A DNA stretch of 64,000 nucleotides from a virus (IMGVR_UViG_3300045988_077625:20961-84960); one strand, 5' to 3'. Positions 15,643 to 61,608 are shown, counted from the stretch's first letter. The notes: generated by a model not told the origin, from the letters alone. Numbers and translations are program-made.

Positions 15643-16694
15643 GATATTTTTACACGATTTTCAAAAATTTTTTTCATTTGCTCGTCCGTGAAATCCATTG
15701 GACTGTATTTATATCCATCATATCCTTGATTGTTGTAGGCACAAAATACTGTGAAATATGGAGTGAGGCGACGCGCAATCTTTTTTATCTTTGCTACGAA
15801 AAATCTAAAATCTTCACCTTTGGTATCAATAAAATCTGAATCAAAACCAATCGTTACTTCATTTACACCAAGCTCTAACAACAATTGTATATGTTGCTTA
15901 GACACATTTGACCCAAATACAGCCAATGTATTATTTATTCCTTTTGATGCAGCTTTTAAGCAAGATTTCTCAGCTTCAAATAATATAACGCTCTTACACT
16001 TGCTGATTATGTCCTTATTTTGATCATAGGCATAAAATAGTTGACCGCTTGGGAATTTTAATACTGTCCCATCTAATGTGCATATTGGTCTATATTTGCC
16101 TTTAACTATATCCTGCTCTCTTGTATATCTCCCCCTTACGCCTACTAGTTGTCCATTAAACACAACAGGTATGGAAATACACGCCTGACGCGCATACCAG
16201 CCTATACCAAATTTATCAAGTGTATCTGCTGAAATGCCGTAATCCAGCCATTCTTGCGGATATAAATGGTCAAATAGAGATAATATAGACTTGTCATATG
16301 TCAAAAGTTTATCTGGCTCTGGATCGGCATTAGGTAGAAATCTACGCAATTCAGACCAATTATCAATCTGCTCATCTTGCTCTATTTGCCCCACTTGTAG
16401 ATGCAAGACAGAGCAGATATATGATACAGCTTGATTAAAGTCAATATGCTTAACATGCTGAACTAGAGATATAGTGTCACCTGAAAAATGACATACAAAA
16501 CAAAACCAGTTTTGAGATTCAATGTAGTAATAAAGGCGCGGCTTATGAGCTTGGCAATCATCCCCATGATGGCATATACTTGGGAATATCAGATTATTAC
16601 TATCAGCCTTCATCAATGGAGCACCCATAGCATCCATTAGCTCTATAATGCGGTCATCGGTTAATTGGGATTTGAGAGATTGGATGTCGATCAT
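15639..16694 (-). CDS. dnaG: DnaG-type DNA primase
   Basis: CHC2-like zinc finger (CHHGDDC..FCFVCH) and Toprim residues (EAEKS, DSD). Confidence 0.8.
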   Translation of the reverse strand: MIDIQSLKSQLTDDRIIELMDAMGAPLMKADSNNLIFPSICHHGDDCQAHKPRLYYYIESQNWFCFVCHFSGDTISLVQHVKHIDFNQAVSYICSVLHLQVGQIEQDEQIDNWSELRRFLPNADPEPDKLLTYDKSILSLFDHLYPQEWLDYGISADTLDKFGIGWYARQACISIPVVFNGQLVGVRGRYTREQDIVKGKYRPICTLDGTVLKFPSGQLFYAYDQNKDIISKCKSVILFEAEKSCLKAASKGINNTLAVFGSNVSKQHIQLLLELGVNEVTIGFDSDFIDTKGEDFRFFVAKIKKIARRLTPYFTVFCAYNNQGYDGYKYSPMDFTDEQMKKIFENRVKIS

Positions 16695-18163
16695 TTAGCA
16701 TATACCAATCGTGTTCGTTGAAGCTGATAGGGGTTATCAAATTTAGTAGTTACAAAACAATCCTTTGTTCGACCTGTATTCAAATCAAGATGGAAATATA
16801 TCTTAATGCCCTGTTCAACCTGTGAGAAGCGCATCTTATAACATGATAATACACGATTCGGCTTTACTTTATTAGGATATTTCTCCATCATCATATCAGC
16901 TATTTCTTGCTCTTTACGACGCAACGGCATGATTACGCCAGCCACATCAGCCTTGTTCTGAATTGCTCTTGAACCAGCTGCAACGCCGCTATCCATAATC
17001 TCCTGAGTCATGGCATTAGCATTAACCTGAGTAAATGTCAAGACAGCAATATTATATTCAACAGCTAAATCCTTGAGCTTACTTGCTATACCAGATAGCA
17101 CTTGATCTGAACGAGTAGACACGCCATTCTTTTTAGCCAAATCGCTTGATACAGATGATGATTCAACAATGTAATCATAACAAAGATAGCCTACATTTTT
17201 GTTTACCACATAATCCTTTACATACGATTCAATCAAATCAACCGTATAATTAGGCATAGTGACGATATATAGCTTAGATTCATGCAAGATTTTAATAGCC
17301 TCATCTACACGTTCTTCTTCGCCTTCCTCATATCGCCCATTTAAGATACTAAAGCATGGCACGCCGCTAATTGTAGCCACAATCTTAGGCGTGATTTCAG
17401 TATCCCCAGCCATCTCAAATTGGAGATATAGACCAGCCTTATGCTGATAACATGGATTATCTATATATTGCCCCTTGTTTATGTCATAGATTCTAGGACA
17501 ACATACTTGCACAAGATTAGCCAAGCCAATAGTTGACTTGCCTACACCTGAGCCGACTGAATAGATAGATAGCTGTCCCGGAATCCAACCTCTAGCAGCT
17601 GTGTTCAAATATTCGCTAAAGGTCGTTGCGCCGAATAGCGGCTCTGCCTTAAAGCCCTCTTTAATCGCTTCAAATCCGTCGCCAGCTTTTAGCTCATCTA
17701 TATCTTTATCTTTGTAGAATTGCTTTTTTATAGCTATCTGCTGTGCGTCAAAATATTGTACTATGTCCTCTATTGTCGCTTTATTATCTTGTTCAAATTT
17801 ATCTATGTTGTATCCAACTGTCTTGTATGAGCGAAGCAATGTAGCTCGTCGCGTGTTGTTGTAATAGACCTCAAAGTTCCCAACATTGGCAAGCTGCTTG
17901 ACTGTATCAATGAAATCGTCTAGTTGATTCAGCTTGAATATATCCTCTACCCTTTTGTTGTTCTTACATAGCATATAGAGGTCTAGTGCTGATATAGACT
18001 CAGCTCCACGCTTAGCCAAAGCGACACAGCCCTGCCACAATCTGAGGTGAAAATCGACCGTGAAATCTTCACGACTCAATGGGTACTTATCAGAAATAGC
18101 AAGAGAAGGCTTGATTAGCAAACAACCTAATAGTAACCTAACAGAATTTTGGTCATAGAGCAT
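16691..18163 (-). CDS. dnaB: DnaB-type replicative helicase
   Basis: Walker A GSGVGKST, DnaB-like N-terminal domain, 4-nt overlap with the primase gene. Confidence 0.8.
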   Translation of the reverse strand: MLYDQNSVRLLLGCLLIKPSLAISDKYPLSREDFTVDFHLRLWQGCVALAKRGAESISALDLYMLCKNNKRVEDIFKLNQLDDFIDTVKQLANVGNFEVYYNNTRRATLLRSYKTVGYNIDKFEQDNKATIEDIVQYFDAQQIAIKKQFYKDKDIDELKAGDGFEAIKEGFKAEPLFGATTFSEYLNTAARGWIPGQLSIYSVGSGVGKSTIGLANLVQVCCPRIYDINKGQYIDNPCYQHKAGLYLQFEMAGDTEITPKIVATISGVPCFSILNGRYEEGEEERVDEAIKILHESKLYIVTMPNYTVDLIESYVKDYVVNKNVGYLCYDYIVESSSVSSDLAKKNGVSTRSDQVLSGIASKLKDLAVEYNIAVLTFTQVNANAMTQEIMDSGVAAGSRAIQNKADVAGVIMPLRRKEQEIADMMMEKYPNKVKPNRVLSCYKMRFSQVEQGIKIYFHLDLNTGRTKDCFVTTKFDNPYQLQRTRLVYAK

Positions 18164-22844: not shown

Positions 22845-22873
22845 ATTATACCATAAAATTGTTTACTTGTCAA
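22845..22873 (-). promoter_or_regulatory. sigma70-type promoter (extended -10)
   Basis: Minus strand reads TTGACA-17-TATAAT with TGg. The -35 lies inside the last dnaE codons. Confidence 0.7.
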
Positions 22874-25800
22874 GTATTTTCCAACATTTTATAATATTTT
22901 CTTTTTCTCCTGTTTTTACCCACTCACCATCTTCACTTTTTTTATACTTATCTTTTTCTTGAATGACGGCTTTAATACAATCGCCAACGTTTATTGTATT
23001 CTTACTATAATATTGTCGATTTACTTTATGTGTTCTTTCAACACCAAAGCACAAATTATAAATTTTTACATAAACCGTACCATATCCTGTTGTCTTGACG
23101 TCTAGCACTAGCCAATCATTAGGGTCTGAATTTGGGTCATTGCCATCTACATATCCTAATAGCTCTATCTGCCATTTCAGCTTGTCAACAACGGTCGTTT
23201 TAGGCATTTTCATTGAGCGCAGAATTGCTAGGATAATGCCGCGATTATCAAGCTGACTAGCTGTTTTCTCTGTTAGCTTACCAGCATATGGCTTGAGCAT
23301 ATCTACATTATAACCCATTTCAGCCCATTTGTCAAGCTTAATTGTCTTGCATTTTGAAAATTTATTAAAAATCTCAATACCTAACAATAGTGCCTTAGCT
23401 GGGCCAAATTCTGTAAAATAACCAATCTTAACCAAAATGTCAAGTTGTCGCGCATCTGGCTTTGCTTCAAGCTGTTGGATGGCGAATAGCACATCAATAA
23501 AATTCTTGAACCGCATATCACGCATACCATATAATGCCTCAGCTACATCGGCGCTCATATACTTGATTGAGCCAAGCCCCTTATAGATTGTATTTTCATC
23601 TGCATCACAAAAATAATCTGAGCGAGAATGACGGAATTTAGGAGATTTTATTTTAATGCCGACCTTATGAGCATATGCCGTTAATGCCGCTGTCTTTTCC
23701 TCTTTGCCTTGATTGATATTCATAGCAACTGTAAGGAATTGAAGTGGATAATGGTATCTGAGCCAACCTGACACATATCCCTCATAGCTATATGGCTGAC
23801 TATGATTTAGAGAGAATAGATAATTGCTAGCATCAATAATAACTTGGATAAAATCAGCTATGACCTTATCTGATTCGTTTTGGTTCATATTGTGTCGCTC
23901 TGCCATTGTTTTAGCAAAACCAGCCTTGATTTGCGGTATATCCTTATCTGTACCAGTCTTTTTAGCAAAATGGCGGCGCACAACATCGGCTTCGCCCATA
24001 GTATAACCACAATATTCATGTAAGAATTGAATGATTTGACACTGGAATACAAGGTAGCCAAATGTCGGCTTCATAAATTCATCAATCGCCGCATTTCCAG
24101 ATTTACGGATAACGCCATTAGCAAGGTCATCACGATATGATGCACCGGCAGGACGAATTGCGCCATTACCGATTGATAGCAATGTCATATAGTCAATGTT
24201 TGGATTCAACGCCTTAAATTTCTGAATATTAGACTCAGATAAGAGCTGCTTGATATATCTATCACCAGTTGTGCCTTCCCACTGGAAGATAGCCGTAGTA
24301 TCATCTCTGATACTATCCCATACGGCTTTGTCATTTATATCAACATTGTCAGGCGTTAGACGCTCAATGCCAGCTAATTTACACGTCTCATTGATTAGTT
24401 CAATGGTATCAAGCTTGAGCAAATCTAGCTTGACATAATTCTGTAAATCAACCTCTTTCATATTGATTTGGCTGATTGGTACATCATCTGTTGACGTAGT
24501 AAATAATCCCATACGGTCATCAATAGAATGAGGTGATACAACTAAGCCGCAAGGATGGTTGCCAACTGAAACAACGCAACCATTTACAATATCGACATAT
24601 TTGAATAGCTCCGGATATTTAACACGGCATTTGTCCTCGTCTTGTTCTACGGCATTACATATTTGCCCCACTTCATCAAGTGGCATTTCCAACGCTCTGC
24701 CAACATCACGAATAGCGCCTTTTAAAGCAATCGTATTAAATGTGACAATATCAGAACAATACAACCCATGCTTGTTAAATATATATTGCTTGACCTCGTT
24801 GATTCTGCTAGGAGGAAAATCTGTATCAATATCCGACAGCGATACGCGCTCCGTATTCATGAATCGCTCAAAATTAAGCCCATGCTTGATGCTATCCATC
24901 TCAGTAATACCAAGCAGATAAGCAATGACTGAACCGTTGCATGAACCGCGCCCATATCCTACAAGAATGTCCTGCGTCTTGCACCATGCTATAATGTCCT
25001 CCATGAGCAGCATAAAGTCAATCGCGCCATTATGGACATATGCTTTCATCTCGTATTCAATGCGGTCTATGTATTCTTGATAATTAGGCAGCTTGTCAAC
25101 ACCGCGCCACACAATACCATCTGCGATCTTAGCTCTAAGAACAGCCTCGCTATCATCGCCCCATAGATGCGGATACTTATAGCTATAATCAAGCTCGAAC
25201 GGCTCAATCATATCAGCTACAGTATTCGTCATCTCAATAGCATCCAAGTACACATCTATAGGCAGCGCGTCCTGCATACGGCATAATTGCACCAACTCAT
25301 CATAACTCATCATTTCAAGATGAAATTTATCTTCACCGTCAAAATGAATATTCTTGGCTTTTTGTAGAATTTTGCGCCCATCTACATGAGTAGAATTGAG
25401 CGCATGAGTATCAGTACACATCAATAGCCGCAAACCGCTTTGTTTAGATAGCGCCCATAATGTATTGTTATAACTCTTTTGAGCGGGGTCAAGATGAGGC
25501 TGAATCTCAAGAAAACATCTGTCTTTGTGTTCACATAACCAATGGTAAAAATCCCATCGGACATCATCTGGCGCTTTGTTTAATACGCCGCCAAGACAAG
25601 CCGTAGATACAATGATATTATCACTGACATTCTTTACATCCTCAATCGTAATTCGTGGCACATAATAGAATGAATTATCGTCACGATTAAATGCCTTACT
25701 TGATAACCTGTTCAGCTCTAATACGCCATCATAATTTTTAGCAATTAACAGACAGTGGTAATTATCACGGATTTTTTCTGATAGGGTCTGAGTTAGATAA

Positions 25801-26021
25801 AATTCCTGAGCGTGGATATATTTCATACCCATTTCTTCTGTATGCAATTTCTTCTTTACCCATTGAAATACAGAACCATGCTCAGAAAACGCCATTGCCT
25901 TCATTCCTAGCTCTGCGGCGCGGTCTATATATTGGTCATATCGTGTTACAGAATCTATATTGGTTACGCCATTAGATAGCATAGAATGGATATGAAGGAT
26001 TGTATAATTTTCGTTCATCAT
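22863..26021 (-). CDS. dnaE: DnaE-type DNA polymerase III alpha subunit
   Basis: N-terminal PHP domain (ILHIHSMLSNG, AFSEHG). 1052 aa. Replication gene context. Confidence 0.8.
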   Translation of the reverse strand: MMNENYTILHIHSMLSNGVTNIDSVTRYDQYIDRAAELGMKAMAFSEHGSVFQWVKKKLHTEEMGMKYIHAQEFYLTQTLSEKIRDNYHCLLIAKNYDGVLELNRLSSKAFNRDDNSFYYVPRITIEDVKNVSDNIIVSTACLGGVLNKAPDDVRWDFYHWLCEHKDRCFLEIQPHLDPAQKSYNNTLWALSKQSGLRLLMCTDTHALNSTHVDGRKILQKAKNIHFDGEDKFHLEMMSYDELVQLCRMQDALPIDVYLDAIEMTNTVADMIEPFELDYSYKYPHLWGDDSEAVLRAKIADGIVWRGVDKLPNYQEYIDRIEYEMKAYVHNGAIDFMLLMEDIIAWCKTQDILVGYGRGSCNGSVIAYLLGITEMDSIKHGLNFERFMNTERVSLSDIDTDFPPSRINEVKQYIFNKHGLYCSDIVTFNTIALKGAIRDVGRALEMPLDEVGQICNAVEQDEDKCRVKYPELFKYVDIVNGCVVSVGNHPCGLVVSPHSIDDRMGLFTTSTDDVPISQINMKEVDLQNYVKLDLLKLDTIELINETCKLAGIERLTPDNVDINDKAVWDSIRDDTTAIFQWEGTTGDRYIKQLLSESNIQKFKALNPNIDYMTLLSIGNGAIRPAGASYRDDLANGVIRKSGNAAIDEFMKPTFGYLVFQCQIIQFLHEYCGYTMGEADVVRRHFAKKTGTDKDIPQIKAGFAKTMAERHNMNQNESDKVIADFIQVIIDASNYLFSLNHSQPYSYEGYVSGWLRYHYPLQFLTVAMNINQGKEEKTAALTAYAHKVGIKIKSPKFRHSRSDYFCDADENTIYKGLGSIKYMSADVAEALYGMRDMRFKNFIDVLFAIQQLEAKPDARQLDILVKIGYFTEFGPAKALLLGIEIFNKFSKCKTIKLDKWAEMGYNVDMLKPYAGKLTEKTASQLDNRGIILAILRSMKMPKTTVVDKLKWQIELLGYVDGNDPNSDPNDWLVLDVKTTGYGTVYVKIYNLCFGVERTHKVNRQYYSKNTINVGDCIKAVIQEKDKYKKSEDGEWVKTGEKENIIKCWKILDK

Positions 26022-26726: not shown

Positions 26727-26933
26727 TTATTTAATTTTTTCTACAGGTTCTCTAACAAATTCAAAATATTGTGGCATTTCAGGTAATATTCTAACATTTC
26801 GTCCTACTAAGTGAAGCCGCAGTTCTGACAATAGCATATTAACTTGCTTACAACTTAAATTCTCGTTAAATCTAACAATATATGTGCCACCATCTTGTAG
26901 AGATTTGACGGTTCTAATTTCTTCATCATTCAT
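26727..26933 (-). CDS. hypothetical protein
   Basis: Track ORF. Confidence 0.5.
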   Translation of the reverse strand: MNDEEIRTVKSLQDGGTYIVRFNENLSCKQVNMLLSELRLHLVGRNVRILPEMPQYFEFVREPVEKIK

Positions 26934-28339
26934 ATGAATATCCTCTGGTCTTGATTTACTGCTACAACCCTACTTGATTTACCTTGTTTGATTAGCTCGT
27001 CTTGTAGTGTATTGGCAAATTCTACTTTATTCTCATAGTTACCATGTACTAAACAGAGTTTGTTGAAACGCAATGTATTTGCATAGTAATCAATTAACTC
27101 ATCACGAGAAGCATGAGACGAGAACGACACAAGCTCTGTGATATTAGCATTGTTCTCGACTACATCCCTCTCAATGTTAATCTTGTTCTCTCCGAATCTA
27201 ATCTTAGAAGCAAGTGTATTGTCAGAACTATAACCACAGAATATGATATGAGCATTATGATCTGGCAATAAAGCCTTTGCCCATGACACGCTTTTTCCTC
27301 CGGATAGCATACCTGCCGAGCTAAGCACCACCATAGGATTGGTCGGTTTTGTATTTTGTAGCGTCAATGTAGCAGCATGGTCAGGCACGAATTGTAACCT
27401 TTCCCAATGATACACCTCATTCCATAATTCATCATCGTCTGGATACAATGCGCATATTTTTTGCGCCATAGGTGAATCTACATATACTTTAATATCATTT
27501 GGAATCTTTTTATCTTTCCATAGTTGATACAACACGGTTAAGATACTTTGGCATCTTCCCAATGCAAATACAGGGAATAATGTTCTCTTGGACTGATTTA
27601 ACACAGCTACAATTTTCTCTAAATCTTTCTGCCTATCATATGGTTTGTTATTTCGCCCAATAGCGTTATATGTATTTTCACCAAGCAACATATCACAAAA
27701 CGGCAAATTGACTCTTGGTTCAAGATAGAATTGTGGCGTTTTGCCGCCAATGTCCCCAGTAAAGTTCAATACCTTGCACTGATAACCTTGTGTAATAGCA
27801 AGTGATAATTGGCATGAATTGATAATATGATTAGCTGGATAATATGTTAAAGTAATATTTGACGTTAGATTATATTGAGTTAGTGGGTTAACTTCAATAC
27901 ACCTGCTTAAAGCTGTCGCAATATCATCAGGAGTATATAACGGAGCAACTTTAATGCCGTGTTTGTTTGTAATCTTTTGACAATCTTGTGTCATAATCTT
28001 ACAAGAATCTTCCCACAATACTTTGAGATAAGCCGTAGTTCCTTTTGGGCATATGATATGAGTTTGGCATCCTTTAGCATATAATGCAGGAACAAGACAG
28101 GTGTGATCTGCATGAGCTTCATGTAGAATGAGCCAATCTACCTCCCTTGGTTTAATTTTTTTAAGCAATGACTGGTTCTGTCTATAGTTAGTAAGAATAT
28201 CACTCTCTTGGTAAATACCACAATCTAGCATGATGCAATATTTTTGAAAACGAACAAGATAGCATGATTGTGTTACTCCAACAGCAGATGCACCAATACA
28301 CTTGAGATATGGCTTGGCGGTGCCGTTACCTGATACCAT
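26930..28339 (-). CDS. metallo-beta-lactamase fold / beta-CASP-like nuclease
   Basis: HEAHADH fits HxHxDH. About 470 aa. Confidence 0.65.
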   Translation of the reverse strand: MVSGNGTAKPYLKCIGASAVGVTQSCYLVRFQKYCIMLDCGIYQESDILTNYRQNQSLLKKIKPREVDWLILHEAHADHTCLVPALYAKGCQTHIICPKGTTAYLKVLWEDSCKIMTQDCQKITNKHGIKVAPLYTPDDIATALSRCIEVNPLTQYNLTSNITLTYYPANHIINSCQLSLAITQGYQCKVLNFTGDIGGKTPQFYLEPRVNLPFCDMLLGENTYNAIGRNNKPYDRQKDLEKIVAVLNQSKRTLFPVFALGRCQSILTVLYQLWKDKKIPNDIKVYVDSPMAQKICALYPDDDELWNEVYHWERLQFVPDHAATLTLQNTKPTNPMVVLSSAGMLSGGKSVSWAKALLPDHNAHIIFCGYSSDNTLASKIRFGENKINIERDVVENNANITELVSFSSHASRDELIDYYANTLRFNKLCLVHGNYENKVEFANTLQDELIKQGKSSRVVAVNQDQRIFI

Positions 28340-33567: not shown

Positions 33568-33643
33568 TGGTCGAGGGTAAGTGATTTGAACACTTGTAGC
33601 ACGATTATAAGTCATGTGGACTAGACCGCTGTCCGAACCCTCG
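33568..33643 (-). tRNA. tRNA-Ile (anticodon UAU), CCA encoded
   Basis: Hand fold. Acceptor CGAGGGT/ACCCTCG. D arm GGAC-AGCGGTCTA-GTCC. Anticodon stem CATGA/TCGTG with loop CTTATAA. T arm AAGTG-TTCAAAT-CACTT. Confidence 0.8.
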
Positions 33644-44429: not shown

Positions 44430-44573
44430 TTGTGGAGCGAAATGAGTTATAATTGGTATATATCGGAAGATACAGAACCAGAAGTATGGGATAATGAATA
44501 TGAGCCAACTGAGCGTGATTGGGCGCTTTGGATATATGGTAGTTCAGAGAATGAATTAGAGGTGATTTTTTGA
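44430..44573 (+). CDS. small acidic protein (47 aa, TTG start), coupled to the RNAP gene
   Basis: AAGGAGGTG upstream. Its stop overlaps the RNAP TTG start (TTTTGAAC). Confidence 0.4.
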   Translation: MWSEMSYNWYISEDTEPEVWDNEYEPTERDWALWIYGSSENELEVIF

Positions 44574-47239
44574 ACCTACAGACGCAAATTTATTTGCATT
44601 CAATAGATACTAGTGCATTTTATGATGACAACGAGCTATTGATACATAATCGGCTTGTAAGGTTATATTCTTTGAGAAAACAATTATCAGATATTGATAA
44701 GCCGAAAAAGAAAAAGTCTGGCGAACAATCGAATAAAAAAACATACAAAACAAAGAAGTTTGCTGAACGTAAAGAATGGGAGAAATCGCTTGAGGGTAAA
44801 CTGGATTGGAAAGTAAAATCTGTAAATCGTTTGCTTAAAAAAGAAAAGGCGCGGTTATCTGAATTGCTTGATGATGCTGTGAATCGAAATGCAACTAGAG
44901 AATTGCGTACAGATGCGGTTACAGATAAGACGGTTGTTAATCTATTTGAATCTGATTTGACGCGTAGCTTGAGGCTTGAGCCGTTTAAGTTGACCGATGA
45001 GTTATTCATCATTAACGTATTTTTCTTTCAGGTATTTAATAATCTAGTTCATCAAGGATTCATCTATAATGGCGAAAAATATGTGTTCCTCACTGCATCA
45101 GCGGGTCAAATCCGTACCAAACGAGCTGTATTTGTTAAAGAATCATCATTTAAGCAAATTGAACAGAAATTGATGTGTGGGTTAACCATAGATGAAATCA
45201 ATGAACAGGGAGGAATGAATCAGAACAAGTTCCTTACATATTTAGCCCTTATGAACTCTGCTACCGATGTTTGGGAAGATTTTGATATCGACAAATCCAT
45301 TGTGATGGATGATTGGGAAACGGCTGTTCCGGGATTGGTTGACCATATTGATGGCGTGTCATATGAGATTAGGCGCGAAATGACAGAGACGGTCATCCCT
45401 CATATGGACGGATGCGGCATCATGCTCAATGAAACAACACGGATGGTGCGTATGCCGTGGGTTAAAGGTCTACTTGTTACATTTCCATTTGATAAATTTA
45501 TCAAAGAGAAATGTGGCGGCGAAGCAATTGTAACAGATATTTACGGCAACGAGCATAAAATTATAGAAGAAGGCATACGGTATATATTCACAAAGAGCCA
45601 ATTCAAATTATGGAAATTTTATGATTCGTGGGAATGCTATAAGGCACGATTCAAAAATTTTGGATGTAATGCTTGCTATTGCAATATAGAAGAACCGTAT
45701 ATTCCAAAGAGCCGCATCAATTATCAGATGCTTCAGACATTGAGCGATATGACTGATAATGAGATTGACCGCATCATCTCCAAGACGGAGCAAGAGATTG
45801 ATGATGTTGGCAAGGATTATCAAGTTACGATGCGGCTACTTGGCGCAACAGAGAACAACCGCTATAAGTCAGCTATGCAAGAGGCGTTATTGATATATCC
45901 TGAGCTGTTTAAGGATTCATATAACCGAGAAATTCTGAAACAGACTAAAAAGAGCCTAGTAAAGCAAGCTAAGGGCGGGCGGCTTAGAGTTAATGGAAAA
46001 TATTTATTCTTGGCACCTGATTTATACGCTTTCTGTGAATGGCTGTTCCTAGGCGAACAGAATCCACAAGGATTGCTTACAGATAGTGATGTATATACAA
46101 ATCAATATCGAGATGGAGAAACACTTGCTTGTTTGCGTTCGCCGCATCTGTATAGAGAGTGGGCAATCAGGACAAATCGACGCAGCTTAGAGCTTGACTA
46201 TTGGTTTGGTGAAACTAAGTGTATATATACTAGTTGTCACGATTTAATAACAAGGATAGTTATGGCGGACTGCGACGGTGATAAATTACTGGTTATAAAA
46301 GACCGAACATTGACAAATTGTGCGAAAAGGAATATGTCTGATATTTGTACTCTTGCATATGACCTCAAAAAAGCCAAGGGCGGCTTATTAAATCCAGACA
46401 GTATGTACAATGGAATGGTCAATGCTTATACTAAGGGTAATATTGGGCCAGTTAGTAATAATATTACAAAAATCTGGAACAACGGCGAAATTACACAAGA
46501 AGAATTGGATGTTGTTAAATGGCTCTGCTTTGAAAATAACGCTGTTATTGATTGCGCTAAGACGCAATGGCTACCAGAACGACCCAAGCAAATCAATAAC
46601 ACAATCAAACAATACACCAAAGCCCGTGTGCCAAATTTCTTTCAATATGCCAAAGACAAAGACCCAGATACACAAGTTGAGCCTCCCAACAATTCCACGA
46701 TGAATCGCATCTCAGCTAAAATTCCTACGTCCCGAATCCGCTACAATAACAAGATTGGGAAATTCGACTGGACGATGCTGATAAATAAGTCAGTCGATTA
46801 TACCACTAGAGAAAATTCGCCAATCATCGAGAGGTATAATTGGTGGATAAGAAATCAACGTCGATTTGACTATGGTGATGACACGCATATCAATGAGAAC
46901 GATTTATATAAATATCGCCGCATAGCACAAGATATAGTGGAATATAGCAATGAACCACTAGATGTTGTTGTCAATAGTTTGGTTGCTTATTTATATACGG
47001 TCAAAAAATCAAGCAATAAGAAAATGCTATGGGCTTGTTTTGGTTGGACGATTGTAGATAATTTGAGAATCAATACGGCGCAACTTAATCCAATCTGCCC
47101 CATTTGTGGTAAGCGGTTCAAGCCACGTGATGTATGCCAGCATTATTGTTCTGAAGAATGCTATAAGAAAGCAGATAATCAGCGGCGTATTGAATCGCGT
47201 GAAGCACCACCTGTCCGCACGGGGGACAGGTTAAAATAG
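44570..47239 (+). CDS. YonO-like single-subunit RNA polymerase (beta-prime-like double-psi barrel)
   Basis: LRSPHLYRE, then about 35 aa later VMADCDGDKLLV (nt 46265-46282). This parallels beta-prime NRAPTLHR ... NADFDGDQMAV. C-terminal CPICG..C..C zinc ribbon. Confidence 0.65.
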   Translation: MNLQTQIYLHSIDTSAFYDDNELLIHNRLVRLYSLRKQLSDIDKPKKKKSGEQSNKKTYKTKKFAERKEWEKSLEGKLDWKVKSVNRLLKKEKARLSELLDDAVNRNATRELRTDAVTDKTVVNLFESDLTRSLRLEPFKLTDELFIINVFFFQVFNNLVHQGFIYNGEKYVFLTASAGQIRTKRAVFVKESSFKQIEQKLMCGLTIDEINEQGGMNQNKFLTYLALMNSATDVWEDFDIDKSIVMDDWETAVPGLVDHIDGVSYEIRREMTETVIPHMDGCGIMLNETTRMVRMPWVKGLLVTFPFDKFIKEKCGGEAIVTDIYGNEHKIIEEGIRYIFTKSQFKLWKFYDSWECYKARFKNFGCNACYCNIEEPYIPKSRINYQMLQTLSDMTDNEIDRIISKTEQEIDDVGKDYQVTMRLLGATENNRYKSAMQEALLIYPELFKDSYNREILKQTKKSLVKQAKGGRLRVNGKYLFLAPDLYAFCEWLFLGEQNPQGLLTDSDVYTNQYRDGETLACLRSPHLYREWAIRTNRRSLELDYWFGETKCIYTSCHDLITRIVMADCDGDKLLVIKDRTLTNCAKRNMSDICTLAYDLKKAKGGLLNPDSMYNGMVNAYTKGNIGPVSNNITKIWNNGEITQEELDVVKWLCFENNAVIDCAKTQWLPERPKQINNTIKQYTKARVPNFFQYAKDKDPDTQVEPPNNSTMNRISAKIPTSRIRYNNKIGKFDWTMLINKSVDYTTRENSPIIERYNWWIRNQRRFDYGDDTHINENDLYKYRRIAQDIVEYSNEPLDVVVNSLVAYLYTVKKSSNKKMLWACFGWTIVDNLRINTAQLNPICPICGKRFKPRDVCQHYCSEECYKKADNQRRIESREAPPVRTGDRLK

Positions 47240-57400: not shown

Positions 57401-57928
57401 ATGGCTAATACTCACTCTTTTGTTATCCGCACTCTTGACGATTGGCAGAATGATGCCATCAACTGTGCTGGCATTTGCAAGGATAATGACCTAGATAATG
57501 GTCAGTTTGTCACTCGTGGCGCTCTAGGTCTAAAGACTGACGGTGGCTATGAATTTGCTTGTACACTACCTGCTGCTAATGCAACTGATCTATGGCTCGT
57601 CGAAAAGCCCGCTGTTGGCACCACTGTTGAGCAGCAGGAAATGAGCGACCCCCGTTATTTCTATAACCCCAAGGGCAGCGCATTCTCCATTAAGGGTCTA
57701 ACTGCTGGTCGTACTTTCCTTGAAGCTCCCGCTTCTGCATTTGCTACCGGTAAAGATCCCAAGACTGTTGCTAGTGCTACTGTTGCTTCTGTTGGGACTG
57801 ATGGCCGTCTAGTTGCAGCTGCTAATGCTCCTGCTTCTGGTACTTATTTTACCATCGAAGCCGAGCATACCGTTGATATTGGTATCGAAGCTGTTCCTAC
57901 TTGGATTCTCAAGTGCGCCCGCAACTAA
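57401..57928 (+). CDS. abundant head protein (decoration or scaffold-like)
   Basis: Same GCT/CGT/CTT-biased codon style as the capsid exons. AAGGAG upstream. Confidence 0.4.
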   Translation: MANTHSFVIRTLDDWQNDAINCAGICKDNDLDNGQFVTRGALGLKTDGGYEFACTLPAANATDLWLVEKPAVGTTVEQQEMSDPRYFYNPKGSAFSIKGLTAGRTFLEAPASAFATGKDPKTVASATVASVGTDGRLVAAANAPASGTYFTIEAEHTVDIGIEAVPTWILKCARN

Positions 57929-57963
57929 TTAAATTTAATAAATAAGCAAAGGAGATATATATT

Positions 57964-58220
57964 ATGAATCTAAGCAAAGAAATTGTTGCTTTCTCCAATG
58001 GCAACACTAAGTTCTATGAGCAGTTCATGGACTATCATTTCCATAAGTCTGAGGCTGAACAGGGCCGTAAGCTAGGTGCTTATGATGTTACCAAGCCTCT
58101 TGCTGAAAAGCATGATGTTGTCAATGCTGCGTATTTTGCAGAGGTTGAGCGTCTTTCCAACTGCACTCGTAATGCTGAGAATGCTGATGCGTGGGCAGCT
58201 AATCCTATGGTTCGCTGGGT
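57964..58220 (+). CDS. major capsid protein, exon 1 (proposed)
   Basis: AAGGAG plus ATG. Only 87 codons before a TAA that I place inside the intron. Splice-site choice is tentative. Confidence 0.5.
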
Positions 58221-58422
58221 AAAATAATATGGCCCTCTATATTGAGTAATCAGTATAGACTTCTCGTTAAATGCGTTTAATCCCTAAAGCCTATATACCC
58301 AAACAGTAGCTAGAAATGGCAAGCTGAGTGGTTGTGAAAACAGAAAAAAGTTATAGGATATTTATATGGTTAAACCCTAAGTGAATGTAAATGGGTGTTT
58401 CGCAGGGAAAGCCCTAAATGTA

Positions 58423-58451
58423 TTGACATGTTACTTACGATATGGTATAAT
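58423..58451 (+). promoter_or_regulatory. sigma70-type promoter (extended -10) inside the intron
   Basis: TTGACA-17-TATAAT with TGg, upstream of the endonuclease ORF. Confidence 0.7.
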
Positions 58452-58570
58452 ACACATGGGAAACCCCCAACGACTATCCCCTTGAGGGGGAGTAAAACCA
58501 CAAGTTTATGGTGGAAGAAAAATGAGACTCTTATATATCTAATATTATCGACCAAGAAATGAGGTTTAAT

Positions 58571-59503
58571 ATGATTAAACCAGACCAAATTGTTAAAGTA
58601 AAATGGAATGGACAAACCAAGCAGTATTGGATTTCAAAAGGATATACTTGCACTAAAATGGGAGATAAGTTCGAGGCGAAAGCCGAGGATTTACCACCCA
58701 AGAGTGCTATATTTGTTGATGCGATTTGCGACTATTGTGGGCAAGCATTTCCAATGAGAATGTATGCTTATAATAACAGCGCAAAATCTGGGAAAGTTGC
58801 TTGCAAGCATTGCAAAGGTAAGAAAGCTAAAGAAACAAATCTTGACAAATATGGTGTTGAAAACGTTATGCAGGTAGATGAGATTCATGATAAGATGAAA
58901 AGTACCATGCTATCAACGTATGGTGTTGAGCATCCGTCACAGTCAAAAGATTTACATGCTAAAGCAATGAGCAAGTACAATTTTAGCGACGCGTTAGACA
59001 AGCGCAAAGAGACGTGCTTGTTAAAATACGGAGTGGACAATGCAAGTAAATCTCAAGACGTTATAGCCAAGGCCAAGAACACATGCAGAAAGAAGTATGG
59101 TGGTGATAGCTCACAATGTGATGAACAGGTGAGAGCTAAATCTATACAATCTATGCTAAATGGCGGGGTAATTCAATCATCTAAAGCAGAACGAGCTATG
59201 ACGGATTTACTAATTGATATGTATGGGAAAGAAAATTGTCATCCGCAATTCCCTTTAGATAAAATTGTTATGGATTGTTTACTCGACTATAATGGTATTA
59301 AAATTGACGTTGAATACGATGGAGAATTTTGGCATAAGGATAAACAAGAAAGTGATAAACGCCGAGATTATTATTGTATTAGACGTGGATATAAAGTATT
59401 ACGATTCTTTAGCAAATATAATGTTCCTACAAAAGAGCAAATAAAACAAGGTGTTGACTATCTGGTCAATAGTGAACACAAACATTTAAGAATAGATATA
59501 TAA
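58571..59503 (+). CDS. intron-encoded homing endonuclease (Vsr/DUF559-like PD-(D/E)xK C-terminal domain)
   Basis: Repeated KYG(V/G)xN modules. C-terminal DVEYDGEFWHKDKQESDKRRDYYCIRRGYKVLRF. ATG follows GAGG. Confidence 0.6.
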   Translation: MIKPDQIVKVKWNGQTKQYWISKGYTCTKMGDKFEAKAEDLPPKSAIFVDAICDYCGQAFPMRMYAYNNSAKSGKVACKHCKGKKAKETNLDKYGVENVMQVDEIHDKMKSTMLSTYGVEHPSQSKDLHAKAMSKYNFSDALDKRKETCLLKYGVDNASKSQDVIAKAKNTCRKKYGGDSSQCDEQVRAKSIQSMLNGGVIQSSKAERAMTDLLIDMYGKENCHPQFPLDKIVMDCLLDYNGIKIDVEYDGEFWHKDKQESDKRRDYYCIRRGYKVLRFFSKYNVPTKEQIKQGVDYLVNSEHKHLRIDI

Positions 59504-59583
59504 GATGAAGATATAGTCTGAACTCATATGAAAGTATGAGCAGTTTATCTTTGCGTTGAGAGATGAACGGCATAGGCGTTACG

Positions 59584-60439
59584 AACCTATGTGAACATAA
59601 TTGCTAACTTCGCTGTGATCAACGCCCTAGTCAATGCAGTTCTTCCTGCATACGTTACCGAATCCCTTGCTCCATTCGTTGATTTCCGTATGGCTGGCAT
59701 TGGCGATATTGTTAAGGTCAAGGTTATGCCTCGTACCCTTTACACCGTCTCTGCTGGTGGCACTGGTGAACGTACAACTTTCCGTCAGAAGAAGTATGCT
59801 GGCGATGTTGTCATTTCCATGCAGGAGCGCATTATCACCACTTACGTTGATATGTATCGCGTAATGGCTGGTAAGGAAGATATTGCTGATTTCGTCCGTG
59901 CTATCGTTCTTTCCATTGAGATTGATATGCAGAAGATGGCCGTTGCCGCTCTTAATGCTGGTCTAGCTGGCGCTTCCTATCCTTCTCAGTTCCTAGAGAA
60001 TGCCGCATTTGATGCTAAGAAGCTTATTGCTCTAGCACAGCGCGTTCAGGCTTATAACAATGGTATTAAGCCGATTATCATGGGTACTGCTTCTGCTCTA
60101 GCTAACGTCCTACCTGATAGCACTATGGGTTATCGTGGCAATTATGACGCTAATGGCGGCTCTGTCCATGTTCTCCGTGACTTCTATGGCTTTGCCCTCT
60201 ATGAGCTACCCCAGATGCCTACTGGCTCTAACTACGGTCTAGCTCTTGATGACAACAAGCTATATGTTGTTTCTCCTGTTGGCTCTAAGCTAGTTGTTGG
60301 CGCTATGTCCACCACTCTAACCAACAGCAATCAGTTCTATGAGAATGCTGACCTCACCTCTAATTTTACAATGCGCAAGAACTACGGATTCGAGTTCGTC
60401 GGTGCATCCTTCGCTGGACTATACACCATCACTGAGTAA
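59584..60439 (+). CDS. major capsid protein, exon 2 (proposed)
   Basis: The frame is open from 59576. No SD or ATG (the track start is a bare GTG). 282+ codons in highly-expressed codon style. Followed by a strong terminator. Confidence 0.55.
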
Positions 60440-60448
60440 TAATTATCT

Positions 60449-60472
60449 GAGAGGGGTTATTAACCCCTCTCT
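60449..60472 (+). terminator. rho-independent terminator after the capsid gene
   Basis: GAGAGGGGTT-atta-AACCCCTCTC then TATTTATA. Confidence 0.65.
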
Positions 60473-61167: not shown

Positions 61168-61608
61168 ATGGCAACATCATTTGATGTTATTTGTAACAGA
61201 GCATTAAGTGTAATTGATGACTATAAACTGCGTAAGCTATATGACGCAAACATTGAGCTGTTTCACGACAAGATTGATGGTTGGGTCATTAGCTCAGCAG
61301 CAAAGTTTATAGAATGTGAACAACCGCTAACATACAATTCAGAGCTTAGACAATTTGACGCAGATTTAACAGATTTAGAGATTCAGATTCTTGCCGAATA
61401 TTGGGTAATTTACTGGTGGCGCGGCGAGACGGACGTAGCAACACAGATTGCGCAAAAACTTAAAGTTCCATCATCTTTCCAGATGGATGGCGTATCCTCA
61501 CAGAATTTCAAGGAAAAACAGAACGTCATTGATAAGCTAGAAGAAGATGTAGATAGGCTCATTCACGACAAATACCAGCTCTTATATCTATCCTCCTATA
61601 ATTATTAA
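61168..61608 (+). CDS. putative head-tail connector/adaptor (by position)
   Basis: Track ORF downstream of the capsid gene. Confidence 0.35.
   Translation: MATSFDVICNRALSVIDDYKLRKLYDANIELFHDKIDGWVISSAAKFIECEQPLTYNSELRQFDADLTDLEIQILAEYWVIYWWRGETDVATQIAQKLKVPSSFQMDGVSSQNFKEKQNVIDKLEEDVDRLIHDKYQLLYLSSYNY

What the first reader, a model, noticed from the sequence alone, without database searches (positions are those of the whole stretch)
57964..60439. Putative major capsid gene split by a group I intron that carries its own consensus promoter and a homing endonuclease
- **Exon 1.** An SD+ATG ORF of only 87 codons (57964..58227) sits about 1.36 kb upstream of a 282-codon open frame. That second frame has no SD and no ATG, and is open from 59576.
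- **Shared codon style.** Both pieces use the same distinctive GCT/CGT/CTT/TCT-rich codon style as the abundant head gene 57401..57928.
- **Intron core.** The intervening DNA contains AGATATAGTC (59509-59518), which matches the conserved P7 3' core remembered from Tetrahymena and T4 td introns. The complementary GACTAT lies at 58472-58477.
- **Other helices.** There are GAAA-type hairpins, and a possible P1 with a U.G pair at 58220.
- **Proposed junction.** Joining 58220 to 59584 (omega-G at 59583) restores the frame (..RWV-TYVNIIANF..) and gives a 370-aa protein.
- **Payload.** A TTGACA-17-TATAAT promoter (58423-58451) and a Vsr-like endonuclease ORF sit inside the element.
Basis: partly seen in the sequence, partly recalled or inferred. 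Interest (0 to 1): 0.7.

Follow-up and report, generated by a model that had tools for sequence, protein, structure and literature searches.

The report
Mobile self-splicing intron in capsid gene
The major capsid gene of this uncultured gut phage is interrupted by a mobile group I intron carrying its own promoter and homing endonuclease, a known kind of element, but it appears to splice after a G rather than the near-universal U.

Summary
The core of the finding holds. Window 57964-60439 is one HK97-fold major capsid gene (YonB family) split by a 1384-nt group IA2 intron (58220-59603). The intron carries a 12/12 sigma-70 promoter in P6 and a DUF7487/DUF559 (I-Bth0305I-like, Vsr-type) homing endonuclease gene in the P8 loop.

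Evidence:
- Rfam gives sub-threshold group I hits (E 5e-5 in the window; 7e-8 and 3.5e-9 in ORF-less relatives).
- Fifteen related introns support 16 helices: 98.8% of cells paired, 52 of 90 pairs with compensatory changes.
- More than 100 uninterrupted homologues were listed (most of the 120 shown, of 406 hits).
- The exact 363-aa spliced protein is encoded without an intron in near-identical ~82-kb phage genomes.

Its omega-G lies in the conserved P9.2 loop. Intron-less alleles read TGGG|CT, which gives 58219|59604 (RW|ANFA, 363 aa).

The 5' exon therefore ends in G, and the U.G pair sits one position inside the intron. Across 15 alleles at three capsid-gene sites, only this rule gives colinear products. 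The same shift was shown experimentally for group B IStrons (BcISt1, target AGGG followed by U).

Verdict: a new member of a known kind, with an uncommon 5' splice site. Splicing and homing were not tested.

The parts
57964..58219 (+). Capsid gene exon 1: 85 codons plus the first base of the Ala86 codon. The Shine-Dalgarno AGGAG lies at 57950-57954.
   Evidence: Aligns with residues 1-85 of uninterrupted 361-366-aa homologues. The exact 363-aa spliced product is encoded without an intron in loci L079-L084.
58220..59603 (+). Group I (IA2-type) intron, 1384 nt. U58220 is its first base and G59603 is omega-G.
   Evidence: Insertion relative to intron-less alleles that read TGGG|CT. Rfam RF00028 partial hits. 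Covariation across 15 related introns.
58217..58235 (+). P1: exon GGG (58217-58219) plus intron U58220 pair with the guide sequence GCCC (58232-58235). The loop is 58221-58231. The U.G pair lies one position 3' of the inferred splice site.
   Evidence: GCCC is invariant in 15 introns. GGG|U is the junction at all three capsid-gene sites. The same arrangement is reported for group B IStrons (PMC4227781).
58236..58259 (+). P2 hairpin: 58236-58245 pairs with 58250-58259, closed by a GUAA loop.
   Evidence: 9 of 10 pairs show compensatory changes.
58262..58268 (+). P3 5' strand UCUCGUU, which pairs with AAUGAGA at 58521-58527.
   Evidence: 4 of 7 pairs are compensatory and 99% of cells are paired.
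58272..58404 (+). P4 (58272-58275 with 58401-58404), P5 (58282-58284 with 58393-58395) and the extended P5 arms.
   Evidence: Predicted by RNAalifold. Pair counts, coordinates.
58406..58465 (+). P6/P6a (58406-58407 with 58464-58465; 58412-58414 with 58458-58460). The loop of this arm holds the promoter.
   Evidence: Both P6 pairs and one P6a pair are compensatory. The loop is short and has no promoter in L001, L006 and L009.
58423..58451 (+). Sigma-70-type promoter TTGACA-17-TATAAT with an upstream TG. It faces the endonuclease gene.
   Evidence: 12 of 12 match. Present in L119 and L096. A similar one sits in P6 of L148 and in the P8 loop of L136 and L141. Function is inferred.
58472..58476 (+). 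P7 5' strand GACUA, which pairs with UAGUC at 59514-59518.
   Evidence: 100% of cells paired. The middle pair is C-G in 6 introns and U-A in 9.
58477..58514 (+). P7.1 (58477-58482 with 58486-58491) and P7.2 (58498-58501 with 58511-58514), the extra hairpins typical of IA2 introns.
   Evidence: 3 of 6 and 4 of 4 pairs are compensatory.
58521..58527 (+). P3 3' strand AAUGAGA.
58529..58540 (+). P8 5' strand, which pairs with 59494-59505 (12 bp in the window). The endonuclease gene fills the P8 loop.
   Evidence: Direct reading of the sequence. 8 pairs were counted, all cells paired. ORF-less relatives have a short P8 loop at this place.
58571..59503 (+). Homing endonuclease gene, 310 aa. The Shine-Dalgarno GAGG lies at 58561-58564. 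The stop TAA 59501-59503 lies inside the P8 3' strand.
   Evidence: Pfam DUF7487 and DUF559; PHROG 12131 and 3339. A profile of 7 intron-borne relatives has I-Bth0305I (PDB 3r3p) as its best solved match, E 0.003. The L009 orthologue starts at this ATG.
59494..59505 (+). P8 3' strand AGAUAUAUAAGA.
59509..59518 (+). J8/7 and the P7 3' strand (AGAUAUAGUC), the conserved catalytic core.
   Evidence: Rfam alignment. A 19-mer spanning this core and the start of P9 occurs in 69 viral contigs.
59523..59592 (+). P9 (59523-59529 with 59534-59540, GAAA loop), P9.1 (59543-59550 with 59559-59568) and P9.2 (59570-59576 with 59586-59592). The P9.2 loop contains G59583.
   Evidence: 2, 7 and 6 pairs respectively are compensatory.
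59593..59603 (+). 3' tail GAACAUAAUUG, ending in omega-G59603.
   Evidence: A tail of the same type ends related introns in other genes. It was checked against an intron-less allele for the second intron of L001. The GAACA motif after P9.2 is also described for IStron ribozymes.
59604..60439 (+). Capsid gene exon 2: the last two bases of Ala86 through the stop codon.
60449..60471 (+). Terminator-like hairpin followed by a T-rich tail, just after the capsid stop codon.
   Evidence: This is a consensus scan only.

Best explanation
Window 57964-60439 is a single major capsid gene (HK97 fold, YonB family) of an uncultured ~82-90-kb gut phage. It is interrupted by a mobile group I intron of the IA2 type, 58220-59603.

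**Splicing (inferred).**
- The capsid pre-mRNA folds into the ribozyme, helices P1 to P9.2.
- A free guanosine attacks the bond between G58219 and U58220.
- The freed exon then attacks after omega-G59603.
- The result is CGC UGG G|CU AAC and a 363-aa capsid protein, identical to that of intron-less sister phages.
- The 5' splice site is unusual. The exon ends in G, and the conserved U.G pair (U58220.G58232) is formed by the first intron base next to the P1 loop. This matches the experimentally characterised group B IStron ribozymes.

**Mobility (inferred).**
- The 310-aa endonuclease gene sits in the P8 loop.
- It has its own consensus sigma-70 promoter in the P6 loop. It can therefore probably be made by host RNA polymerase independently of capsid transcription.
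- The enzyme would cut intron-less capsid alleles of co-infecting phages.
- Repair from the intron-bearing copy then spreads the intron (homing).

**What is shown and what is inferred.**
- Shown here: the anatomy, the conserved and covarying structure, the exact insertion boundaries, the presence/absence polymorphism, and the protein families.
- Inferred: the splicing chemistry, promoter use, endonuclease activity and homing.
For: **Capsid gene identity.**
- 406 homologues were found. Most of the 120 listed are uninterrupted proteins of 351-366 aa that cover the whole query and read RW|ANFA across the junction.
- An AlphaFold2 model (pLDDT 80) matches only HK97-fold capsid and encapsulin structures in its top 50 hits (E about 1e-7, probability 1.0).

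**Intron boundaries.**
- The exact 363-aa product of the join 58219|59604 is encoded without an intron on at least 19 contigs up to 84 kb.
- At the DNA level these alleles differ from the window's exons at 16-43 of 1092 positions and read TGGG|C.

**Ribozyme.**
- RF00028 hits score 29.3 bits (E 4.7e-5) and 13.7 bits in the window.
- They score 37.5 and 41.8 bits (E 7e-8 and 3.5e-9) in ORF-less versions of the same intron.
- Across 15 related introns, 90 pairs in 16 helices are 98.8% paired, and 52 pairs show compensatory changes.
- 0 of 500 shuffles reach these values. Controls with the partner slid by 1-3 columns are 37-49% paired.
- P7.1, P7.2, P9.1 and P9.2 are present, as in IA2 introns.

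**Splice sites.**
- In 15 alleles at three capsid-gene sites, the rule 'exon ends in GGG, intron runs U...G' gives a colinear product in 15 of 15.
- The rule 'U at -1 plus the last G' gives a frameshift in 15 of 15.
- For site B, the intron-less allele L107 confirms the expected protein sequence SKGARGERT.
- BcISt1 was shown by RT-PCR to splice after the G of AGGG, with the following U as the first base of the element (PMC4227781).

**Mobility.**
- Both ORF-less and ORF-bearing versions of the intron exist.
- The endonuclease families are, and the promoter.
Against: - No RNA or protein data were available, so splicing, the exact 5' cleavage site and endonuclease activity are untested.
- Every Rfam hit is below the family's gathering score of 50 bits.
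- The exon part of P1 is only 3 bp (GGG/CCC), and no convincing P10 was found.
- Canonical group I rules would place cleavage after U58220. A G at -1 is rare enough that a recent intron database discards every candidate without U at that position (PMC11835236).
- The match of the endonuclease profile to I-Bth0305I is weak (E 0.003). The single sequence finds no relevant solved structure: only two chance-level matches at E about 0.1.
- I found no direct sequence similarity to a verified group B IStron.
Confidence: 0.85

Rival explanations
1. Splicing follows canonical rules after U58220 and after G59583. The mRNA then keeps 59584-59603, and the capsid protein has 370 aa with the insert VTYVNII.
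For: - U58220.G58232 is a proper wobble pair in the canonical position.
- The join is in frame and open in all eight alleles at this site.
Against: - No homologue has the insert, and the 370-aa sequence is absent from the collection, while the 363-aa one is present.
- G59583 lies in the loop of P9.2, where 6 of 7 stem pairs are compensatory.
- That loop and the GAACAUAAUUG tail are 3'-terminal intron features in unrelated genes.
- The second insert codon reads T, P, S, F or A across alleles through changes at the first two codon positions, which is not a coding pattern.
- The same rule fails in 6 of 7 alleles at the other two sites.
- The insert would fall inside a predicted 27-residue helix.
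Confidence: 0.04
2. Fully canonical splicing, after U58220 and after G59603. The mRNA would carry one extra U (UGG GUC UAA), so the capsid gene would be broken or would need translational recoding.
For: This is what textbook rules predict from the U.G pair and the family's 3' tail. Related introns in other genes (the second L001 intron, L058, ECP3) have a canonical U at -1.
Against: - It gives a frameshift in 15 of 15 alleles, and an immediate stop in the window.
- Intron-bearing phages are nevertheless common. Exon products were seen on 17 and 69 contigs, and the ribozyme is under purifying selection.
- No conserved slippery or recoding signal was seen at the junction across alleles (direct reading of the joined sequences).
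- BcISt1 shows experimentally that the U is removed.
Confidence: 0.03
3. There is no productive splicing. The capsid is made as two polypeptides, 87 aa and 282 aa (the latter from GTG 59591), and the ribozyme is a relic.
For: Gene callers report the two pieces separately in many metagenomes (P0121, P0123, P0003, P0069, P0077). An NTG codon lies at the same place in all eight site-A alleles.
Against: - All such calls come from intron-bearing alleles. The start codon lies in the intron's conserved P9.2 stem and tail, with no convincing Shine-Dalgarno sequence.
- The split would fall inside a predicted long helix of the HK97 fold.
- Strong covariation shows that the RNA structure is maintained.
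- Sister phages with an identical protein have an intact gene.
Confidence: 0.04
4. The element is an IStron, that is, a group I ribozyme fused to an IS605/IS607 transposon, rather than a homing intron.
For: - It shares the GGG|U 5' junction and the GAACA motif after P9.2 with group B IStrons.
- A related ribozyme core in the portal gene of Staphylococcus phage Romulus is followed by an IS605 OrfB transposase gene.
Against: - There is no transposase ORF. The only ORF is a DUF7487/DUF559 endonuclease, and it lies in P8, not after P9.2.
- Only 11 nt follow P9.2.
- Each insertion site is conserved among related phages, as expected for homing.
Confidence: 0.02

Closest known systems
Group I introns with homing endonucleases in phage capsid and other structural genes. 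Examples: mycobacteriophage LittleE capsid intron, lactococcal phage Tuc2009 capsid gene, introns of Twort/K-like Staphylococcus phages.
   Same: [quoted passage not shown] It is present in some closely related phages and absent from others (PMC3706429). The ribozyme core (P3 to P7.2) is 68-77% identical to intron cores in Enterococcus and Staphylococcus Herelleviridae.
   Different: The host phage lineage differs: it has an SPbeta-like structural module and is known only from metagenomes. The endonuclease is of the DUF7487/DUF559 type, not HNH or LAGLIDADG. The inferred 5' splice site follows G, whereas LittleE, BAKA and the ECP3 relative have U at -1.
Phage T4 td intron (IA2), as I recall it from the literature
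   Same: It has the same IA2 architecture with P7.1 and P7.2, the same AGAUAUAGUCUGAAC core, a P1 of the form GGGU paired to G-C-C directly abutting P2, and an endonuclease gene with its own promoter inside the intron.
   Different: In td the U of GGGU is the last exon base, the ORF sits in P6, and the endonuclease (I-TevI) is GIY-YIG. These td details come from memory and were not tested here.
Group B IStron ribozymes (BcISt1 of the Bacillus cereus group, and CbISt3/4 of Clostridium botulinum phages)
   Same: They are IA2 ribozymes. The target ends in GGG, U is the first base of the element, the U.G pair is shifted one base pair from the splice site and flanked by the P1 loop, and a GAACA motif follows P9.2. 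Splicing after G was shown by RT-PCR (PMC4227781).
   Different: IStrons carry IS607/IS605 transposase genes after P9.2 and insert in many unrelated genes. This element carries a homing endonuclease in P8 and occupies fixed sites in one gene. I found no direct sequence match to a verified group B IStron.
I-Bth0305I (PDB 3r3p), the intron-encoded endonuclease of Bacillus phage 0305phi8-36
   Same: It is the best solved-structure match to the C-terminal domain of the endonuclease profile. The matched stretch (profile positions 242-292) covers the conserved motif DVEYDG..WH...D.RR, whose residues D246, E248, D250, H255, D262, R264 and R265 are invariant in 7 relatives. Both are encoded in phage group I introns.
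   Different: The match is weak (E 0.003, 51 profile positions). The N-terminal two thirds (DUF7487, with CxxC...CxxC and repeated YG motifs) has no solved relative. The Vsr-like fold of I-Bth0305I is from my memory of the literature.

Membership tests
Group I intron (Rfam RF00028) | Covariance-model score at or above the curated gathering score (50 bits) | tested here: not met
   Window: 29.3 bits (E 4.7e-5) and 13.7 bits as two partial hits on either side of the ORF. ORF-less relatives: 37.5 and 41.8 bits, E 7e-8 and 3.5e-9. The hits are significant but below the threshold.
Group I intron | Conserved core helices P3-P9, including the P3/P7 pseudoknot arrangement, maintained in evolution | tested here: met
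   16 helices and 90 pairs, 98.8% paired. 52 pairs have compensatory changes. 0 of 500 shuffles reach these values, and slid controls are 37-49% paired.
Group I intron | The last intron nucleotide is G (omega-G) | tested here: met
   G59603, by comparison with intron-less alleles. The last base is G in 15 of 15 related introns under the only colinear boundary rule.
Group I intron | The last 5'-exon nucleotide is U and forms the U.G wobble with the guide sequence | tested here: not met
   Intron-less alleles read TGGG|C, so the exon ends in G58219. The U.G pair (U58220.G58232) lies one position inside the intron. This exception is documented for BcISt1.
Group I intron | GTP-dependent self-splicing | not testable with these tools
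   This needs in vitro transcription and splicing, or RNA from infected cells.
Subgroup IA2 | Extra hairpins P7.1 and P7.2 between P7 and the 3' strand of P3, and an extended P9 with P9.1 and P9.2 | tested here: met
   P7.1 at 58477-58491, P7.2 at 58498-58514, P3' at 58521-58527, and P9.1 and P9.2 within 59543-59592, all with compensatory changes.
Mobile (homing) intron | Presence/absence polymorphism at a fixed site among close relatives, with an intron-encoded endonuclease | tested here: met
   Intron-less genomes encode an identical capsid protein, with 98.5% identical exon DNA. Endonuclease-bearing and endonuclease-free versions occupy the same site.
Mobile (homing) intron | The endonuclease cleaves the intron-less allele near the insertion site | not testable with these tools
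   Only indirect hints are available: synonymous differences cluster within 13 nt of the site (5 of 16).
IStron (group B) | IS607/IS605-type transposase genes placed after P9.2 | tested here: not met
   Only 11 nt follow P9.2. The sole ORF is an endonuclease in P8.
IStron (group B) ribozyme type | Target ending in GGG, U as the first base of the element, and a U.G pair next to the P1 loop | tested here: met
   Seen in 15 of 15 alleles. The comparison rests on the description in PMC4227781, not on a sequence alignment.
DUF559 / I-Bth0305I-like (Vsr-type) endonuclease | Pfam DUF559 match above the curated cut-off, and conserved acidic and histidine residues in the C-terminal domain | tested here: met
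   DUF559 scores 24.8 bits against a cut-off of 20.6. D246, E248, D250, H255 and D262 are invariant in 7 relatives. The best PDB match is 3r3p at E 0.003.
HK97-fold major capsid protein (Pfam YonB, PF27364) | HK97 fold and family membership of the spliced product | tested here: met
   The top 50 Foldseek PDB matches are all phage capsid or encapsulin structures, E about 1e-7. Homologues carry the precomputed PF27364 annotation. My Pfam copy lacks this model, so the window protein itself gave no Pfam hit.

The most novel reading that the evidence does not exclude
This is a homing-endonuclease-driven phage intron whose ribozyme cleaves after a G. The conserved U.G wobble would be formed by the first intron base.

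If so, it is a transposase-free relative, and possibly the ancestral type, of the group B IStron ribozymes.

The family occupies three different sites in one capsid gene, each directly after GGG. One genome carries two copies that share an identical 5' half. This suggests spread to new sites guided by the 4-nt guide sequence GCCC, either by reverse splicing or by selection for splice-competent insertions, and not only by endonuclease homing.
Probability: 0.55. Interest if true: 0.6.

Novelty: new member of a known kind. Interest (0 to 1): 0.42.

Why it matters
**Annotation.** Gene callers split this abundant gut-phage capsid gene into an 87-aa and a 282-aa hypothetical protein in dozens of metagenomes. 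The second piece is given a false GTG start inside the intron. The correct product is a 363-aa HK97-fold capsid protein.

**RNA biology.** The family offers 15 natural alleles at three sites that all imply cleavage after G, with the U.G pair shifted by one base. This exception was previously documented for group B IStrons, and current intron databases filter it out by design. The family would be a compact natural system for studying how group I ribozymes choose the 5' splice site, and how introns and IStrons are related.

**Otherwise ordinary.** Mobile group I introns in phage structural genes are well known.

Tried and rejected
- **Rfam at gathering threshold on the whole window.** It found only a tRNA.
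- **Megablast of the region against GenBank phages.** No match.
- **Single-sequence search of the endonuclease against PDB.** Nothing relevant.
- **Host identification via bacterial genomes.** The only hits were five metagenome bins with inconsistent taxonomy, so no host could be named.
- **Search for P10.** No conserved pairing between the 3' exon and the bases 5' of the guide sequence. The only regularity is that the first exon-2 base is always C or U, which could pair with G58232.
- **My first P3' assignment (GAGUA after P7.1).** Wrong. Covariation places P3' at 58521-58527.
- **Alternative in-frame junctions 58212|59594 and 58216|59604.** Rejected. They delete the conserved RW, and the required U or wobble is not conserved.
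- **Looking for other copies of the P7 core or the endonuclease in the window.** None found.
- **Looking for direct similarity of the P1-P3 region to Clostridium phage IStrons.** None found.
- **The pattern GACTTCTCGTTAAATGCG in viral contigs.** It returned only the same capsid introns plus one chance coding match, L085.
Full report
**What is at the locus.**
- The + strand carries an 87-codon ORF (57964-58227) with a good Shine-Dalgarno sequence.
- Next come about 1.36 kb holding a 314/310-codon ORF (58559 or 58571 to 59503).
- Then comes a 282-codon frame with no ATG, open from 59576.

**The two flanking frames are one capsid gene.**
- The joined protein finds 406 relatives. Most of the 120 listed are single uninterrupted proteins of 351-366 aa that cover the whole query and carry the precomputed Pfam family PF27364 (YonB).
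- In the alignment they run straight across the gap as ...NPMVRW|ANFAVINA....
- An AlphaFold2 model of the 363-aa product (pLDDT 80.4) matches only HK97-fold phage capsid and encapsulin structures in the top 50 PDB hits (E about 1e-7, probability 1.0).
- Neighbours of the homologues carry the YonD_N, YomX_C and YomW families, an r1t-type holin and an amidase.
- The window also encodes a large terminase and a protein that hits the RdRP family, as SPbeta YonO does.
- This is therefore the structural module of an SPbeta-like, uncultured gut phage of about 82-90 kb.

**The intervening DNA is a group I intron.**
- Rfam finds nothing at its gathering threshold.
- With an E-value cut-off on the 1.9-kb stretch, RF00028 matches twice. 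One hit covers 59446-59540 (29.3 bits, E 4.7e-5) and the other 58216-58504 (13.7 bits), one on each side of the ORF.
- Relatives that lack the ORF give single hits of 37.5 and 41.8 bits (E 7e-8 and 3.5e-9). These are still below the 50-bit threshold, so I did not rely on the model alone.
- I collected 15 related introns from capsid genes of related phages, removed the ORFs from the P8 loop, and aligned them.
- The RNAalifold consensus plus a hand-added P7 gives 90 pairs in 16 helices. Of all cells, 98.8% are standard pairs, and 52 pairs carry compensatory double changes.
- 0 of 500 shuffles reach these values. Controls with the partner slid by 1-3 columns drop to 37-49% paired and 8-12 compensatory pairs.
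- The helices map to P2, P3, P4, P5 and its extensions, P6/P6a, P7, P7.1, P7.2, P8, P9, P9.1 and P9.2 (window coordinates). This is the IA2 architecture.
Their middle pair switches from C-G to U-A in 9 of the 15 introns.
- The core is 68-77% identical to intron cores in Enterococcus and Staphylococcus Herelleviridae.

**Payload: endonuclease gene.**
- The ORF lies in the P8 loop. P8 pairs 58529-58540 with 59494-59505, and the stop codon lies inside the 3' strand.
- The conserved start is ATG 58571, behind GAGG 58561-58564. The L009 orthologue lacks the upstream ATG.
- The protein matches Pfam DUF7487 (1e-18) and DUF559 (2e-5, above the cut-off), and the PHROG homing-endonuclease families.
- A profile of seven intron-borne relatives has I-Bth0305I as its best solved match (PDB 3r3p, 'mobile intron protein', E 0.003). 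The match covers the invariant DVEYDG..WH...D.RR block.
- The 'Vsr-like' label is therefore reasonable, but it rests on weak similarity.

**Payload: promoter.**
- TTGACA-17-TATAAT (58423-58451) is a perfect 12 of 12 match with an upstream TG, and it sits in the P6 loop.
- ORF-less relatives have a short P6 loop.
- Other endonuclease-bearing relatives have similar promoters in P6 (L148) or in the P8 loop (L136, L141). One (L009) has none.
- A transcript starting there would lack P1-P6 and could not form the ribozyme. That the promoter serves endonuclease expression is an inference.

**The 3' junction.**
- The exact 363-aa product of the join 58219|59604 is in the protein collection and is encoded without any intron on at least 19 contigs up to 84 kb.
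- These intron-less genes differ from the window's exons at only 16-43 of 1092 positions and read CG(A/G)TGGG|C(A/T)AATTTCGC; the more distant L005 (63 differences) reads CGTTGGG|CTAACTTCGC.
- The inserted element is therefore 58220-59603 (T...G), with the usual one-base ambiguity.
- That loop (GUURCGAA) and the following tail (GAACAUAAUUG) recur at the 3' ends of related introns in unrelated genes, for example an Hsp70-like gene.
- For a second intron in L001, comparison with the intron-less L002 confirms that the exon begins after the tail.
This fits an RNA loop, not a coding sequence.

**The 5' junction is unusual.**
- With omega-G at 59603, the exon must end at G58219. U58220, which pairs with G58232 of the invariant GCCC, is then the first intron base.
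- Canonical rules (U at -1) would give UGG GUC UAA, a frameshift and an immediate stop.
- I tested this on all 15 alleles. They occupy three different sites in the capsid gene: after residue 85/86, after about 138, and after about 320. Each site directly follows GGG.
- The rule 'GGG|U...G|' gives a colinear product in 15 of 15 alleles.
- The rule 'U at -1 plus the last G' fails in 15 of 15.
- For site B, the intron-less allele L107 (AAG GGC GCA CGT) confirms the expected protein SKGARGERT.
- This arrangement has an experimental precedent. Tourasse et al. 2014 (PMC4227781) showed by RT-PCR that the IA2 ribozyme of the group B IStron BcISt1 splices after the G of its AGGG target, and that the following U is the first base of the element.
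- They noted that in group B elements the U.G pair is shifted by one base pair from the splice site and is flanked by the P1 loop. They also describe a GAACA-type motif after P9.2. All of these features are present here.
- A 2025 intron database states that the U.G pair is completely conserved and rejects any candidate without U at -1 (PMC11835236). Introns of this type would be missed by it.

**Mobility.**
- The intron is present or absent among phages with identical capsid proteins.
- It exists with and without the endonuclease gene.
- 5 of the 16 synonymous differences between the window and the closest intron-less alleles lie within 13 nt of the insertion site. This would fit either co-conversion or cleavage-resistant target variants.
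- Homing itself was not tested.

**Comparison with known systems.**
- Group I introns with endonuclease genes in phage capsid genes are documented. Examples are mycobacteriophage LittleE, verified by RT-PCR and N-terminal sequencing, and lactococcal phage Tuc2009 (PMC3706429).
- The element is therefore a new member of a known kind.
- It is not an IStron. It has no transposase, the ORF is in P8, and only 11 nt follow P9.2.
- A related core in the portal gene of Staphylococcus phage Romulus is followed by an IS605 OrfB gene.

**Verdict.**
- The point of interest beyond routine annotation is the inferred G at -1, shared by a family that sits at three GGG sites of one gene.

Noticed in passing
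window 44570-47239 (+): An 889-aa protein matches the Pfam RdRP family (PF05183, E 4e-8). Single-subunit RNA polymerases of the YonO type (SPbeta) hit this family. Together with the YonB, YonD, YomX and YomW-type neighbours, this suggests an SPbeta-like phage with its own late-gene polymerase. The YonO link is from my memory of the literature.
   Followed up: partly
L001 5860-7253, compared with window 61168-61608: A relative carries a second endonuclease-bearing group I intron in the homologue of window gene 61168-61608. The window's copy is uninterrupted. Comparison with the intron-less L002 gives canonical boundaries there: GUGAGU|U...AAAUUAG|AGU.
   Followed up: yes
L136-L141, L143, L146, L154 (site after residue ~138); L148, L149, L154 (site after ~320): The capsid gene of related phages carries introns of the same family at two further sites, each directly after GGG. 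L154 has two introns in one capsid gene. Their 5' halves (P2-P7, about 200 nt) are nearly identical (a few differences in P2/P3; identical from P4 to P7), while the 3' halves and the endonucleases differ. This suggests recent transposition or gene conversion.
   Followed up: partly
window 58214-58219 and 59604-59617, compared with L080-L084: 5 of the 16 nucleotide differences between the window's exons and the closest intron-less alleles lie within 13 nt of the insertion site. None changes the protein. This could reflect co-conversion tracts or cleavage-resistant target variants.
   Followed up: partly
L031, L058, L067, L073, L040 (viral contigs): Introns with the same P7'-P9-P9.2-tail architecture interrupt an Hsp70/DnaK-like gene at the DLGGG|TFDVS motif. 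In L058 the 5' junction is a canonical GGU|AAACAUAAUU.
   Followed up: partly
L161 (Staphylococcus phage Romulus, JX846613 8510-10175): The region annotated 'similar to portal protein' contains a ribozyme core about 68% identical to these introns. A promoter and an IS605 OrfB transposase gene follow it, so it looks like an IStron in a phage portal gene.
   Followed up: partly
window 33571-33643 (-): A tRNA gene (Rfam RF00005, 54 bits) lies between the replication and structural modules. I did not determine its anticodon with ARAGORN.
   Followed up: no
window 3475-5745, 6171-8345, 11880-13364, 16691-18163, 22863-26021, 26930-28339 (all -): The minus-strand replication module encodes:
- a ribonucleotide reductase with a TSCPD domain;
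- a RecD-like helicase;
- a RecJ-like DHH protein;
- a DnaB-like helicase;
- a Pol III alpha-type polymerase;
- a beta-CASP nuclease.

None looked interrupted at the level of a Pfam scan.
   Followed up: no
window 60449-60471 (+): A 10-bp GC-rich hairpin followed by a T-rich stretch lies directly after the capsid stop codon. It could be a terminator or a stabiliser of the abundant capsid mRNA.
   Followed up: no
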